A stretch of 36,045 nt of DNA, taken from positions 1 to 36,045 of the IMG/VR virus record IMGVR_UViG_3300031965_000093; one strand, given 5' to 3'. Under the pieces are notes generated by a model. That model had not been told where the DNA came from. It worked only from the letters and a program-made list of their open reading frames with translations, and searched no databases. A program made the translations under genes and the position numbers. Of the stretch, positions 5,859 through 7,203 are shown piece after piece (positions within the stretch are counted from its first letter, which is position 1; each line of letters starts with the position of its first letter). Origin of the DNA: a virus.

Positions 5859-6095
5859 ATGGAAAATATAGATAAAATAGAAAAAATATTGTTAGCAAGT
5901 GATATTCTCTTTTCAAGAAAAGAAGATTTGATAACGATTGAATACAAAGAATGTAATAATTTCAATGAATTATTAAATTTAATAGGGTCTTTTATCTTGA
6001 ATGGTTTTTCTATAACAACAAACGGTAAAATAGAAAAAGATTTTAGTTTAAAAATAAACAACAAATTATTAATTAAATGGTACTACAATGAATAA
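5859..6095 (+). CDS. Hypothetical small protein, first gene of the glycan island
   Basis: The track ORF starts at 5841, but that ATG overlaps the -10 box. The in-frame ATG at 5859 (MENIDKIEK...) is more plausible. It overlaps the next gene by 8 nt. Confidence 0.45.
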   Translation: MENIDKIEKILLASDILFSRKEDLITIEYKECNNFNELLNLIGSFILNGFSITTNGKIEKDFSLKINNKLLIKWYYNE

Positions 6096-7203
6096 AAAAG
6101 TTTTAATTTTGGGAAGCTCTGGTTATATAGGAAATGCTCTTTTTGAATATTTACAAAATAAAGGATATGAAGTTAAGGGTGTTGATAATCAAATGAGAGA
6201 AAAAAATGTTGAATCAATCGGATCTAAGTCTATAACAAATAAAAAATATTTTCCTTTTCATCTTTTGGATATTGTAGAAGATAAAGATGATTTTAATTTG
6301 CTTATAAAAACATTTAAACCTGATGTAATTGTAAATCTAGCACACCAACCATCTGCTCCTTTTTCAATGATTGATTCTAAACACGCAATGGAAACTCAAA
6401 AAAATAATATTTTAGGGACTCTAAGTGTTTTATATGCCATAAAAGAGTATTGCCCTGATGCACATTTAATCCAACTAGGAACAGAGGGTGAATATTCTGC
6501 TGATTTATGGGATGGGAAAAAAATACCAGAGGGGAGCATAATGAAAGTATTTTTACCGAAAGAAAATATTGAATTTGACCAAGATAATTATGATGAGTGG
6601 GAAATCCCAACACCTCGCTACGGGGGAAGTTTCTACCACTTCTCAAAAATATATTCAGATTACAACATAGATTACGCTTGCAAACTTTGGGGAATAAAAG
6701 CAACAAATATTCAACAAGGAGTAATTTATTCTCACAGGTATAACACTAGACTTGATGTAGATAACTGGTTTGGAACAATAATTAATCGTTTTGTTGCACA
6801 GGCCGTATTGGGTATGCCATTAACAGTTTACGGAACAGGAGGACAAACAAGAGGATTTATTTGTTTACAAAACTCTCTTGAAGCCATTGAATTATTTATT
6901 GAAAACCCTGCCGACAAAGGAGAATTTAGAGTAATACACCAATCCACGGAGTCTTTGAATGTAATGGATATTGCAAAAATGATTCAGGAAAAAACTGGAT
7001 GTGAAATAAAATGTATTGAAAATCCTAGGATGGAAAAAGATAAAAATAATTTCACTTTTGACACTAGCACACTTGATAACCTAGGATTAAAACGTATTAA
7101 ATTTGAAGATGAGTTGCCTCATTTAATTAAAGTAATGGAAGAAAATAAAAATAATATTATCAAGGATGCTTTATCAATAGAAACATTAACAAAATGGAAA
7201 TAA
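6088..7203 (+). CDS. SQD1/SqdB/Agl3-like extended SDR (UDP-sulfoquinovose synthase homologue)
   Basis: GSSGYIGN Rossmann motif, VDNQMRE...[32 protein letters not shown] (Y-H-x-x-K), [29 protein letters not shown], GEFRV. These line up closely with plant SQD1 as I recall it. Confidence 0.8.
   Translation: [371 protein letters not shown]

What the first reader, a model, noticed from the sequence alone, without database searches (positions are those of the whole stretch)
6088..7203. UDP-sulfoquinovose synthase (SQD1/Agl3) homologue encoded by a phage
The 371-aa product is collinear with SQD1 as I remember the plant enzyme: GTEGEYS vs [14 protein letters not shown] vs [22 protein letters not shown] vs [52 protein letters not shown] vs [37 protein letters not shown], and GEFRV in both. 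The Thr, Tyr-His and Lys positions used by SQD1 for sulfite addition to UDP-4-keto-glucose-5-ene all appear to be retained. This family makes the sulfolipid headgroup in phototrophs and the sulfoquinovose of the Sulfolobus N-glycan. A phage copy implies a sulfonated sugar on some phage or host target.
Basis: partly seen in the sequence, partly recalled or inferred. Interest (0 to 1): 0.78.

Follow-up and report, generated by a model that had tools for sequence, protein, structure and literature searches.

The report
Phage-encoded sulfoquinovose-synthase-like sugar enzyme
A complete 36-kb phage genome carries a divergent but intact relative of the enzyme that makes the sulfonated sugar donor UDP-sulfoquinovose, at the head of a phage sugar-assembly operon, so the phage probably builds a sulfo-sugar glycan on an unknown target.

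Summary
ORF 6088..7203 (+, 371 aa) is a full-length homologue of Arabidopsis SQD1: E 7.6e-66, about 40% identity, predicted fold TM 0.90 to the SQD1 crystal structures. The next-best SDR families score around E 1e-15 and TM 0.68. The NAD motif, Thr/Tyr/Lys triad, SQD1-specific His and Gln, and 35 of 44 family-specific positions are kept.

It belongs to a monophyletic, mostly virus-borne subclade with systematic changes (Met146 to Glu/Ala, Asp270Asn, Asn292His, His333Asn, Tyr335Phe). Its rooting relative to proven enzymes is unresolved.

Sulfite use is supported by context only. In related phages, the clade gene and canonical viral homologues repeatedly sit beside a CysH-type APS/PAPS reductase, which makes sulfite. 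APS kinase or sulfotransferases occur in other cassettes. This phage has no cysH.

The gene heads a soluble operon: methyltransferase, LicD, GT2, GT6, a 4-epimerase-like SDR and a second GT2. The window is a complete siphophage genome.

Best reading: a UDP-sulfoquinovose synthase feeding a phage glycan cassette. The acceptor is unknown.

This is not unique. IMG/VR holds at least 224 viral contigs with family members, and one paper reports a viral copy. Interest is moderate.

The parts
6088..7203 (+). SQD1-like extended SDR, the putative UDP-sulfoquinovose synthase (371 aa). Key residues: NAD motif G9-x-x-G12-x-x-G15; T132, E133 (SQD1 M146), E135, Y136, S181, Y183, H184, K187, Q210.
   Evidence: SQD1 is the best PDB hit (E 7.6e-66). 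NF041015 gives 336 bits over the full length. The AF2 model has pLDDT 92.4 and TM 0.90 to 1i2b/1qrr.
7208..7780 (+). Class I SAM-dependent methyltransferase (190 aa). It is fused to LicD in relatives.
   Evidence: Pfam Methyltransf_23 at E 1.3e-05, below the gathering score. Orthologues occur in L003, L004 and L008. MT-LicD fusion proteins occur in L029 and L036.
7773..8327 (+). LicD-family phosphotransferase (184 aa). Members of this family transfer a phospho-alcohol from a CDP-activated donor.
   Evidence: Pfam LicD at E 2.8e-10. NCBIfam Mf1 cholinephosphotransferase at E 1.2e-10, N-terminal part only. A related prophage pairs LicD with an IspD/SDR CDP-ribitol-synthase-like fusion.
8318..9124 (+). 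GT2-family glycosyltransferase (268 aa), soluble.
   Evidence: Pfam Glycos_transf_2 at E 1.3e-06. No TM segment.
9126..9866 (+). GT6-family retaining glycosyltransferase (246 aa), of the alpha-Gal/GalNAc-transferase type.
   Evidence: Pfam Glyco_transf_6 at E 8.5e-35. Best PDB hit is Bacteroides ovatus BoGT6a at E 4.7e-31, followed by the ABO transferases.
9863..10588 (+). Short extended SDR (241 aa), UDP-hexose 4-epimerase-like. It probably supplies the GT6 donor.
   Evidence: Pfam Epimerase at E 1.2e-20. Best PDB hit is UDP-glucose 4-epimerase TM0509 at E 1.8e-21. It is fused to GT6 in L029 and L036 and to a GT2 in L037.
11287..12066 (+). Second GT2 glycosyltransferase (259 aa). This is the most widely conserved member of the cassette in this phage lineage.
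   Evidence: Pfam Glycos_transf_2 at E 1.7e-08. Homologues lie at the same locus in 8 of 22 TerL-lineage relatives that lack the SQD1-like gene.
12071..12520 (+). Conserved 149-aa protein of unknown function at the 3' edge of the cassette, just before the packaging genes.
   Evidence: Homologues occur in L003/L025 and L008. No Pfam hit.
1..127 (.). Left copy of the exact 127-bp terminal direct repeat. The right copy is at 35919-36045. The repeat shows the contig is a complete genome, so a cysH gene is truly absent.
   Evidence: No CysH homologue was found in the window.

Best explanation
ORF 6088-7203 encodes an NAD+-bound extended short-chain dehydrogenase of the SQD1/SqdB/Agl3 family that most likely still makes UDP-sulfoquinovose, or a very close 6-sulfo analogue. 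The inferred mechanism, taken from SQD1 and Agl3, has four steps. First, Tyr183/Lys187/Thr132 oxidise C4 of host UDP-glucose. [quoted passage not shown] Third, sulfite adds at C6. Fourth, the 4-keto group is reduced back by the retained NADH. In this phage the sulfite must come from the host. Several related phages bring their own CysH-type APS/PAPS reductase next to the gene. The enzyme is the first gene of a tightly packed, translationally coupled operon of soluble enzymes: methyltransferase, LicD phosphotransferase, GT2, GT6, a 4-epimerase-like SDR and a second GT2. There is no flippase, polymerase or membrane protein. The product is therefore probably a short, anionic, methylated and phospho-decorated oligosaccharide built in the cytoplasm of the infected cell. 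The acceptor is not shown. My preferred guess is phage structural proteins (virion glycosylation). A host envelope glycopolymer precursor is the main alternative. Shown here: homology, fold, retained catalytic residues, operon structure and recurrent linkage to sulfur-activating genes in relatives. Inferred: sulfite addition by this particular protein, the identity of the glycan and the acceptor.
For: Family assignment:
- SQD1 is the top PDB hit at E 7.6e-66, against 1e-15 for any other SDR.
- The NF041015 'UDP-sulfoquinovose synthase' model matches end to end at 336 bits. Genetically proven S. meliloti SqdB scores 332 and Arabidopsis SQD1 scores 474, so all three are below the 575 cutoff.
- The AF2 model (pLDDT 92.4) superposes on SQD1 structures at TM 0.90 and rmsd 2.3 A. 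Other SDRs reach about 0.68.

Active site:
- T132, E135, Y136, S181, Y183, H184, K187 and Q210 correspond to SQD1 T145, E148, Y149, S180, Y182, H183, K186 and Q209.
- 55 of 69 canonically conserved columns and 35 of 44 family-specific columns are retained.

Divergence is within the range between proven enzymes: query to archaeal type 44%, SQD1 to SqdB 45%, SqdB to archaeal type 38%.

Sulfur linkage:
- A CysH with the ECGIH catalytic motif and CC...CxxC cluster cysteines lies directly downstream of, or overlapping, clade genes in L029 and L031, and within the cassette in L032.
- The same CysH subfamily is adjacent to canonical TMGEY-type viral homologues in L132, L174 and L169/L171.
- An APS kinase occurs in L040. 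Sulfotransferases occur in L001, L006 and, weakly, L007.

Glycan context:
- The gene is always embedded among glycosyltransferases.
- All cassette proteins lack TM segments, and adjacent genes overlap by 4-10 nt.
- In SU10-like podophages the cassette lies between the capsid gene and the adaptor gene, and starts with a GT2-TPR giant protein.
Against: - No activity data exist for any member of this subclade.
- Met146 is Met or Leu in all canonical sequences but Glu here (Glu or Ala across the clade). Agl3 Met145Ala was inactive, and the Agl3 His95 and Arg101 equivalents are Asn83 and Pro88 here (PMC4388408). Pro at the Arg101 position is common in canonical sequences, including ones that pass the NCBIfam cutoff.
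- Four further clade-wide switches (D270N, N292H, H333N, Y335F) lie in the substrate-binding domain, so the substrate could be altered.
- With a CDP-tyvelose-epimerase outgroup, the subclade falls outside all canonical sequences in the point-estimate NJ tree. Support is only 33%, so it is not demonstrably nested among proven enzymes.
- This genome has no cysH, APS kinase or sulfotransferase.
- Only 3 of roughly 15 clade contexts carry CysH.
- Nothing identifies the acceptor.
- The promoter/terminator scan was uninformative.
Confidence: 0.6

Rival explanations
1. The subclade is a neofunctionalised SQD1-like enzyme. It keeps the oxidation and dehydration chemistry but makes something other than UDP-sulfoquinovose. 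Candidates are a UDP-4-keto-6-deoxy- or 5,6-ene sugar, a 6-substituted sugar with another nucleophile, or a 6-sulfo derivative of another UDP-hexose such as UDP-GlcNAc.
For: - Clade-wide substitutions occur at positions that are invariant in canonical enzymes: M146 to E/A, G150P, D270N, N292H, H333N, Y335F.
- Glu133 occupies the position of the general-acid Asp in the T-D-E motif of 4,6-dehydratases. This is my inference from known RmlB chemistry.
- Agl3 M145A is inactive (PMC4388408).
- The subclade is monophyletic (bootstrap 61-74%) and possibly sister to all canonical sequences.
- This phage has no sulfite-producing gene.
Against: - His184 and Gln210, the SQD1-specific residues absent from dehydratases and epimerases, are invariant in the clade.
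- Both the Glu-type (L031) and Ala-type (L029, L032) clade members sit next to the same CysH subfamily that accompanies canonical-type viral homologues.
- Dehydratase models score far below their cutoffs: TIGR01181 gives 61 bits against 365.
Confidence: 0.22
2. The cassette remodels a host cell-envelope glycopolymer (teichoic-acid-like polymer, S-layer or O-glycan, capsule precursor) rather than the virion. The purpose would be to block superinfection or alter the host surface, as in serotype conversion.
For: - LicD-family enzymes classically decorate teichoic acids and LPS (established knowledge).
- A related prophage carries LicD plus a CDP-ribitol-synthase-like fusion at the same locus.
- The nearest apparently cellular homologue (L006, a 188-kb contig) lies in a polysaccharide-type cluster with GT2s, GT11, a sulfotransferase and a methyltransferase.
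- Recombination genes typical of temperate phages (Erf, exonuclease) are present.
Against: - There is no flippase, no Gtr-type membrane proteins and no TM segment in any cassette protein.
- No integrase or repressor was recognised among the ORFs scanned.
- In the SU10-like phages the cassette is inside the structural module, right after the capsid gene.
Confidence: 0.25
3. It is a sulfolipid auxiliary metabolic gene. The phage would boost host sulfoquinovosyl-diacylglycerol synthesis, as SQD1 and SqdB do in phototrophs.
For: The family's best-known role is SQDG head-group synthesis (established knowledge). SqdB in S. meliloti is followed by its glycosyltransferase.
Against: - Pfam scans recognised only GT2 and GT6 among the window's glycosyltransferases. 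No SqdX/SQD2 (GT4) or SqdD (GT8) type was seen.
- The partners (methyltransferase, LicD, epimerase) are typical of glycan assembly.
- No cyanophage-like genes were seen, and the GenBank cyanophage hits are unrelated SDRs at 23-25% identity.
Confidence: 0.03
4. The sugar is used to hypermodify phage DNA, by glycosylation of a modified base.
For: Some canonical-type viral homologues in IMG/VR lie among DNA polymerase A, dCMP deaminase, UDG and DNA methylase genes. Phage DNA glycosylation from UDP-sugars is known (established knowledge, for example T4).
Against: - The scanned window ORFs gave no hit to a dNMP hydroxymethylase, a thymidylate-synthase-like enzyme or any other base-modifying enzyme.
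- Three glycosyltransferases plus LicD and a methyltransferase suggest an oligosaccharide rather than a single sugar on a base.
Confidence: 0.04

Closest known systems
Arabidopsis thaliana SQD1 (PDB 1qrr, 1i24, 1i2b), UDP-sulfoquinovose synthase
   Same: It is the best sequence and structure match: E 7.6e-66, 40% identity, TM 0.90. It shares the GxxGxxG NAD site, the T/Y/K triad, the adjacent His, Gln209, the SAP and NPR motifs, and the family-specific beta-hairpin flap.
   Different: M146 is Glu and H96 is Asn, with a His three residues later. R101 is Pro. D270N, N292H, H333N and Y335F also differ. The flap is 14 residues longer, and a 9-residue loop after the QGVVYG strand is missing. The gene is viral, sits in a glycan operon, and is not linked to a sulfolipid glycosyltransferase.
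Sulfolobus acidocaldarius Agl3 (PMC4388408), UDP-sulfoquinovose synthase for the N-glycan
   Same: It has the same family and the same proposed chemistry. Its biological role, supplying SQ for a protein-linked glycan rather than a lipid, is the closest analogue to the glycan context seen here. The Agl3 E147/Y148 pair that is important for dehydration is conserved as E135/Y136.
   Different: Three residues whose Ala mutants inactivated Agl3 (H95, R101, M145) are Asn, Pro and Glu in the phage protein.
Bacterial SqdB (Sinorhizobium meliloti; sqdB followed by a glycosyltransferase)
   Same: It is a full-length homologue with 32% identity. Its score against NF041015 (332 bits) is essentially the same as the phage protein's (336 bits).
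   Different: It is in a different clade, grouping with SQD1 at 93-95% bootstrap. It has the TMGVY motif and a sulfolipid operon context.
Putative UDP-sulfoquinovose synthase of a Mu-like virus from the Cariaco Basin (Mara et al. 2020, PMC7785012), and at least 224 IMG/VR contigs with canonical-type homologues
   Same: These are virus-borne members of the same family. Some have the same CysH subfamily adjacent, and they commonly have glycosyltransferase neighbours.
   Different: The 80 IMG/VR sequences I inspected are all canonical TMGEY/TLGEY type. The window protein belongs to the separate Glu/Ala subclade. I did not examine the Cariaco sequence itself.
Phage-encoded virion glycosylation cassettes (mycobacteriophage capsid and tail-tube O-glycosylation; from my own knowledge of Freeman et al. 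2023, not read here)
   Same: Soluble phage glycosyltransferases are encoded next to structural or packaging genes, with no export machinery.
   Different: No sulfo-sugar, LicD or GT6 is known in those systems. Glycosylation of this phage's virion is only a hypothesis.
NDP-hexose 4,6-dehydratases (RmlB type)
   Same: They share the extended SDR fold, the first two chemical steps (C4 oxidation, then 5,6-elimination of water) and a carboxylate immediately after the catalytic Thr.
   Different: They score far below threshold: TIGR01181 gives 61 bits against 365, and TM is about 0.66. They have no YH motif. The second carboxylate is displaced by one residue (T-E-G-E here, T-D-E in dehydratases).

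Membership tests
UDP-sulfoquinovose synthase family (SQD1/SqdB/Agl3, extended SDR) | Extended-SDR Rossmann fold with a GxxGxxG NAD+ site and a tightly bound cofactor | tested here: met
   G9-S-S-G12-Y-I-G15 is present. Pfam PF01370 matches at E 2.2e-25. The AF2 model has pLDDT 92.4 and an SDR fold. Cofactor binding itself is not testable here.
UDP-sulfoquinovose synthase family (SQD1/SqdB/Agl3, extended SDR) | Catalytic Thr / Tyr-x-x-x-Lys triad (SQD1 T145, Y182, K186) | tested here: met
   T132, Y183 and K187 are present and invariant across 32 clade members.
UDP-sulfoquinovose synthase family (SQD1/SqdB/Agl3, extended SDR) | Family-specific residues absent from epimerases and dehydratases: His next to the catalytic Tyr (H183), Q209, S102-A103-P104, W200, R229, D233, G237-T238, N241-R242, Q293, N325-P-R327 | tested here: met
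   35 of the 44 columns that are at least 93% conserved in canonical sequences and differ from the TyvE outgroup are retained, including all those listed.
UDP-sulfoquinovose synthase family (SQD1/SqdB/Agl3, extended SDR) | Residues whose Ala mutants inactivate Agl3: H95, R101, M145 (SQD1 H96, R101, M146) | tested here: inconclusive
   The query has N83, P88 and E133. R101 is Pro in most canonical sequences, including ones that pass the NCBIfam cutoff (P0111, P0116), and His96 varies within the clade. These two are therefore not family-defining. Met/Leu146 is universal in canonical sequences and replaced by Glu/Ala in the whole subclade. The effect of that change is unknown.
UDP-sulfoquinovose synthase family (SQD1/SqdB/Agl3, extended SDR) | Closest sequence and fold relative is a proven UDP-SQ synthase, by a wide margin | tested here: met
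   SQD1 scores E 7.6e-66 against 9.5e-16 for the next family. TM is 0.90 against 0.68 or lower.
UDP-sulfoquinovose synthase family (SQD1/SqdB/Agl3, extended SDR) | Score above the NCBIfam NF041015 equivalog cutoff (575 bits) | tested here: not met
   The query scores 336 bits. The criterion is not family-defining, because Arabidopsis SQD1 (474 bits on a 355-aa fragment) and S. meliloti SqdB (332 bits) also fail. PGAP names SqdB only as an 'NAD-dependent epimerase/dehydratase'.
UDP-sulfoquinovose synthase family (SQD1/SqdB/Agl3, extended SDR) | Phylogenetic position nested among experimentally proven enzymes | tested here: inconclusive
   NJ trees give the subclade as monophyletic (61-74%). With a TyvE outgroup the root position is unresolved: sister to all canonical at 33%, nested with the archaeal type at 17%.
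UDP-sulfoquinovose synthase family (SQD1/SqdB/Agl3, extended SDR) | Sulfite-dependent conversion of UDP-glucose to UDP-sulfoquinovose | not testable with these tools
   There is only indirect evidence. A CysH-type sulfite-forming reductase lies adjacent in clade relatives L029, L031 and L032, and in canonical viral homologues L132, L174 and L169/L171. None is present in the window.
NDP-hexose 4,6-dehydratase (RmlB/Gmd type) | T-D-E catalytic motif and a score above the family cutoffs | tested here: not met
   The motif is T-E-G-E-Y. TIGR01181 gives 61 bits against 365, TIGR02622 gives 44 against 278, and TIGR01472 gives 38 against 415.
Sulfolipid (SQDG) biosynthesis operon | Co-located SQDG synthase (SqdX/SQD2 GT4 or SqdD GT8) | tested here: not met
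   The window's glycosyltransferases are GT2, GT6 and GT2 by Pfam. No GT4 or GT8 was recognised.
Phage virion-glycosylation cassette | Phage glycosyltransferases that modify capsid or tail proteins | not testable with these tools
   Only positional hints exist. The enzymes are soluble and lie next to packaging genes here. In SU10-like phages they lie between the MCP and adaptor genes, with a GT2-TPR protein.

The most novel reading that the evidence does not exclude
An uncultivated phage lineage, possibly infecting Patescibacteria or another host that does not use Shine-Dalgarno sites, coats its own virion proteins with a sulfonated, methylated, phospho-decorated glycan. The sulfoquinovose would be made by a virus-specific subclade of UDP-SQ synthase. 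In sister phages the sulfite would come from a phage CysH. This would be the first sulfo-sugar known on a virus particle. It would also give a concrete biochemical role to at least some of the CysH genes found in phage genomes.
Probability: 0.25. Interest if true: 0.75.

Novelty: new variant of a known kind. Interest (0 to 1): 0.5.

Why it matters
Sulfoquinovose is known from phototroph sulfolipids and from a few archaeal and bacterial glycoconjugates. No virus has been shown to make or carry it. This work shows three things:
- The SQD1 family is widespread in viral contigs but almost unmentioned in the literature.
- One subclade is largely virus-borne and carries its own active-site signature.
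- These genes sit in glycan-assembly operons, sometimes with their own sulfite-producing CysH, APS kinase or sulfotransferases.

If the activity is confirmed, it would add an anionic sulfonated sugar to the known range of phage glycobiology. It would give a testable purpose to a subset of phage cysH auxiliary genes. It would also provide compact, soluble enzymes (an SQ synthase plus candidate SQ transferases) for glyco-engineering. If the Glu/Ala subclade has changed chemistry instead, it is a natural experiment on how SQD1 controls sulfite addition versus simple dehydration.

Tried and rejected
- **GenBank/INPHARED phages (tblastn).** No close homologue was found, only unrelated SDRs at 23-27% identity. 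Cultured phages give no anchor.
- **NCBIfam equivalog cutoff as a membership test.** Rejected as a criterion, because proven SQD1 and SqdB also fail it.
- **Rooting the family with CDP-tyvelose epimerases by NJ and bootstrap.** The root is unresolved. The first run also had saturated distances (NaN warning) and was repeated with clipping.
- **Idea that phage PAPS-reductase AMGs in general serve SQD1-like genes.** Rejected. None of 80 generic viral PAPS-reductase loci has an SQD1-like gene within 8 kb. Only one specific CysH subfamily is linked.
- **Looking for cysH, APS kinase or a sulfotransferase in the window.** No cysH homologue was found. The Pfam scans of the other ORFs also found none of the three.
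- **Sigma-70 promoter and terminator scan of 4000-15000.** Counts were no higher than in shuffles, so the transcription units could not be defined.
- **Host identification.** Portal tblastn gives only 22-25% hits to phages of Gram-positive hosts. TerL relatives are almost all unnamed metagenome contigs, apart from one Komeilibacteria MAG prophage-like contig. MAG labels of clade-bearing contigs are inconsistent: Dojkabacteria, Saccharibacteria, Nanoarchaeota, Gammaproteobacteria and Planctomycetia. The host is left open.
- **Mulichak et al. 1999 SQD1 structure paper.** It is not held, so I could not map the clade-specific substitutions onto ligand contacts. The link of H333/Y335 to the GalE Y299 'gatekeeper' region is my inference only.
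- **C-termini of the capsid and tail proteins as glycosylation tails.** Nothing conclusive was seen.
- **Contamination or misassembly.** Rejected. The contig is a complete phage genome with a terminal repeat, and the same cassette is syntenic in independent samples.
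Full report
**Observation.** The next family, CDP-tyvelose 2-epimerase, is at 9.5e-16.

**The window is a phage.** It encodes Erf, an exonuclease, a DnaD-like replication initiator, TerL, a portal-MuF fusion, a protease/scaffold, the major capsid protein, a tail protein and a tape measure. All genes are on one strand. An exact 127-bp terminal direct repeat shows a complete 35,918-bp genome.

**Family assignment.**
- Pfam sees only the generic Epimerase and GDP_Man_Dehyd domains.
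- NCBIfam's NF041015 'UDP-sulfoquinovose synthase' model matches end to end (1-384 of 384) at 336 bits, E 2.5e-100. The best dehydratase or epimerase model reaches 61 bits.
- The score is below the curated cutoff of 575. That cutoff is not family-defining. The biochemically proven Arabidopsis SQD1 (a 355-aa fragment) scores 474, and the genetically proven S. meliloti SqdB, which is followed by its glycosyltransferase, scores 332.
- PGAP labels SqdB merely as an 'NAD-dependent epimerase/dehydratase'.
- Only archaeal-type sequences such as P0111 and P0116 pass, at 617 and 626 bits.
- An AlphaFold2 model built on 32 clade members (pLDDT 92.4, pTM 0.91) superposes on the SQD1 crystal structures at TM 0.90 and rmsd 2.3 A. 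Every other SDR is at TM 0.71 or below.

**Active site.** In SQD1 numbering, the query keeps T145, E148, Y149, S180, Y182, H183, K186 and Q209. These are T132, E135, Y136, S181, Y183, H184, K187 and Q210 in the query. Of the 69 alignment columns at least 93% conserved in 47 canonical sequences, 55 are identical in the query. Of the 44 that are also absent from the TyvE outgroup, 35 are kept. These include the SAP, NR, GT and NPR motifs and the His next to the catalytic Tyr.

The differences are informative:
- Met146 is Glu. It is Glu or Ala in the whole subclade and Met or Leu in all canonical sequences.
- His96 is Asn, with a His three residues later.
- Arg101 is Pro.
- Clade-wide switches occur at G150P, D270N, N292H, H333N and Y335F.

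Agl3 mutagenesis found H95A, R101A and M145A inactive, T144A active, and E147A and Y148A impaired (PMC4388408). Pro at position 101 is the commonest residue among canonical sequences, so it is not diagnostic. The Met146 change and the four C-terminal-domain switches are real unknowns. By analogy with GalE, the H333/Y335 region may border the hexose. This is my inference and was not tested.

**Phylogeny and distribution.** A search of 5.8 billion proteins gives a graded series. About 80 clusters at 45-63% identity all carry the Glu/Ala signature. Canonical TMGEY sequences follow at 38-44%.
- NJ trees make the Glu/Ala group monophyletic, with bootstrap 61-74%.
- With TyvE outgroups the root is unresolved. 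'Sister to all canonical' gets 33%.
- Pairwise identities are 40% query to SQD1, 44% query to archaeal type, and 32% query to SqdB. These lie within the spread between proven enzymes: 45% for SQD1 to SqdB, and 38% for SqdB to archaeal type.
- In 185,579 species-representative genomes, clade-specific peptide patterns found only five clade members. One is a 36,961-bp phage contig. Three are short contigs, of which L004 carries cassette (MT, LicD) homologues. Only one (L006, 188 kb, GC 42-59%) looks cellular. There the gene sits among GT2s, a GT11, a sulfotransferase and a methyltransferase.
- The subclade is therefore predominantly virus-borne.

**The operon in the window.** The gene overlaps the preceding small ORF by 8 nt and is followed by:
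- a methyltransferase (7208-7780)
- a LicD-family phosphotransferase (7773-8327)
- a GT2 (8318-9124)
- a GT6 (9126-9866; BoGT6a at E 4.7e-31)
- a 241-aa UDP-hexose-4-epimerase-like SDR (9863-10588; TM0509 at E 1.8e-21)
- two small ORFs
- a second GT2 (11287-12066)
- a conserved unknown (12071-12520), just before the packaging genes

. No protein in the operon has a TM-like segment. There is no flippase, polymerase or priming phosphoglycosyltransferase.

**The cassette in relatives.**
- The whole cassette is syntenic in IMGVR_UViG_3300009008_000128 (L003/L025) and in a 36,961-bp contig (L008/L029). Partial versions occur in L030, L031, L036 and L037.
- Gene fusions link partners functionally: GT6-SDR2 in L029 and L036, GT2-SDR2 in L037, and MT-LicD in L029 and L036. 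SDR2 therefore probably supplies the GT6 donor.
- Among 22 IMG/VR relatives of the same TerL lineage with enough upstream sequence, 8 carry the second GT2 at this locus, with or without LicD, SDR2 and MT. None of them carries the SQD1-like gene.
- A Komeilibacteria-MAG prophage-like contig has LicD, an IspD/SDR fusion and a GT2 at this locus.
- The SQD1-like gene is therefore an optional add-on to a glycan locus typical of the lineage.

**Link to sulfur.**
- In L029 and L031 a 215-219-aa CysH lies immediately downstream of the clade gene. In L031 it overlaps by 4 nt. In L032 it lies in the same cassette.
- These proteins have the C-terminal ECGIH catalytic motif and the CC...CxxC cysteines. 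They score 120-145 bits against the cysH/APS-reductase models, against a cutoff of 154.
- A scan of IMG/VR with canonical-type patterns found at least 224 viral contigs encoding family members. Of the 80 fetched, all were TMGEY or TLGEY type. Four loci (three distinct) have the same CysH subfamily directly adjacent.
- Their other neighbours are GT1, GT2 and GT4 glycosyltransferases and phage replication genes.
- An APS kinase occurs two genes from the clade gene in L040. Sulfotransferases occur in L001, L006 and, weakly, L007.
- Conversely, none of 80 generic viral PAPS-reductase loci has an SQD1-like gene nearby. The association is therefore specific rather than a by-product of common phage cysH genes.
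- Both Glu-type and Ala-type clade members share this partner with canonical enzymes. This is the best available evidence that the subclade still uses sulfite.
- The window itself has no cysH and would rely on host sulfite.

**Second phage backbone.** In SU10-like podophages (L001, L032, L039, L040) the clade gene lies in a larger cassette inserted between the capsid and adaptor genes. That cassette contains a DegT aminotransferase, formyl- or acetyltransferases, and GT1- and GT2-type glycosyltransferases. It opens with a 760-820-aa GT2-TPR protein. This position, and the protein-interaction TPR domain, are what make me favour virion-protein glycosylation. It remains a hypothesis.

**Mechanism proposed.**
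- *Shown:* homology, fold, retained catalytic set, a soluble co-oriented operon, and recurrent linkage to sulfite and PAPS genes.
- *Inferred from SQD1 and Agl3 chemistry:* NAD+-dependent C4 oxidation of UDP-glucose, His-assisted 5,6-dehydration, sulfite addition at C6, and re-reduction.
- *Inferred from context:* UDP-SQ is used by one of the GT2s. SDR2 and GT6 add an alpha-Gal or alpha-GalNAc. MT-LicD add methyl and phospho-alcohol decorations. The acceptor is cytoplasmic. My estimates for the acceptor are virion proteins about 0.25-0.3, host envelope precursor about 0.25, and other or unknown for the rest.

**Rivals.** They are:
- altered chemistry or substrate in the Glu/Ala subclade (0.22)
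- host-surface remodelling as the purpose (0.25; compatible with the same enzyme activity)
- a sulfolipid AMG (0.03)
- DNA hypermodification (0.04)

Contamination is excluded by the complete genome and by synteny across samples.

**Comparison with what is known, and novelty.** One paper reports a putative UDP-SQ synthase in a Mu-like virus (PMC7785012). JGI already labels several clade members 'UDP-sulfoquinovose synthase'. My literature searches found no study of phage sulfoquinovose, of the Glu/Ala subclade, or of the CysH linkage. I therefore rate this as a new variant of a known kind. The enzyme family and phage glycan cassettes are both known. The virus-borne subclade, its signature substitutions and the sulfur-gene linkage are new. 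Interest is moderate (0.5). The phenomenon is widespread and untested rather than singular, and no function has been demonstrated.

Noticed in passing
window 1-127 and 35919-36045: There is an exact 127-bp direct terminal repeat. The contig is therefore a complete, circularly assembled or terminally redundant phage genome of 35,918 bp.
   Followed up: yes
window, 20 nt upstream of 38 start codons; also L001, L003, L026-L032, L036-L040: Shine-Dalgarno-like motifs are almost absent: 1-3 of 34-38 genes in the window and 0-14% in the related phage contigs examined (L004, a 4-ORF fragment, is the exception at 2 of 4), whose GC ranges from 27 to 48%. Upstream regions are A/T-rich. This points to a host that initiates translation without SD pairing, such as Bacteroidota. 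Meanwhile MAG labels and a TerL relative point to Patescibacteria. The host is unresolved.
   Followed up: partly
L038 (JAPLWM010000020.1, Komeilibacteria MAG, 98-kb contig) 4022-8684: A prophage-like relative (TerL 48% identical) carries LicD, an IspD/SDR fusion (CDP-ribitol-synthase-like) and a 523-aa GT2 at the locus where the window has its cassette. This suggests that the LicD enzymes of this phage lineage transfer a polyol-phosphate.
   Followed up: partly
L121-L200 (IMG/VR), e.g. L135, L158, L167, L172, L187: At least 224 IMG/VR contigs encode canonical-type SQD1 homologues. In one recurrent phage group, Pfam families from a pooled scan of the flanking ORFs include DNA polymerase A, dCMP deaminase, UDG and DNA methylases rather than a large sugar cassette. 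The role of the gene there is unexplained.
   Followed up: partly
L029 11086-11745, L031 11131-11778, L032 15648-16289; L132, L174, L169/L171: A compact (about 215 aa) phage CysH subfamily with ECGIH and CC...CxxC motifs occurs directly adjacent to SQD1-family genes of both the canonical type and the Glu/Ala type.
   Followed up: yes
window 9126-9866: A GT6-family glycosyltransferase (relatives of the ABO blood-group transferases; best PDB hit is the metal-independent Bacteroides ovatus BoGT6a) is encoded by the phage. In relatives it is often fused to the 4-epimerase-like SDR.
   Followed up: partly
window 13228-14652: The TerL ORF is 474 aa from the first ATG, but the public gene call for this contig (P0121) is 378 aa, covering 80%. 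Relatives are 460-517 aa, so the longer start is probably the right one. This TerL defines a large uncultured phage group with 33-40-kb genomes and hardly any named member.
   Followed up: no
window 27224-28330 and 29081-31291: A Laminin_G_3 (ConA-like lectin) domain protein and a 736-aa tail-fibre-like protein lie in the region of highest GC (0.40, against 0.31 for the genome). They are probably the receptor-binding module, possibly acquired by exchange.
   Followed up: no
L001 11973-12596; L007 6404-7042; L006 11862-12863 (minus strand): Sulfotransferase genes (PF00685/PF13469) lie within a few genes of clade members. Some of these cassettes may therefore combine C-sulfonation (SQ) with O-sulfation.
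   Followed up: no
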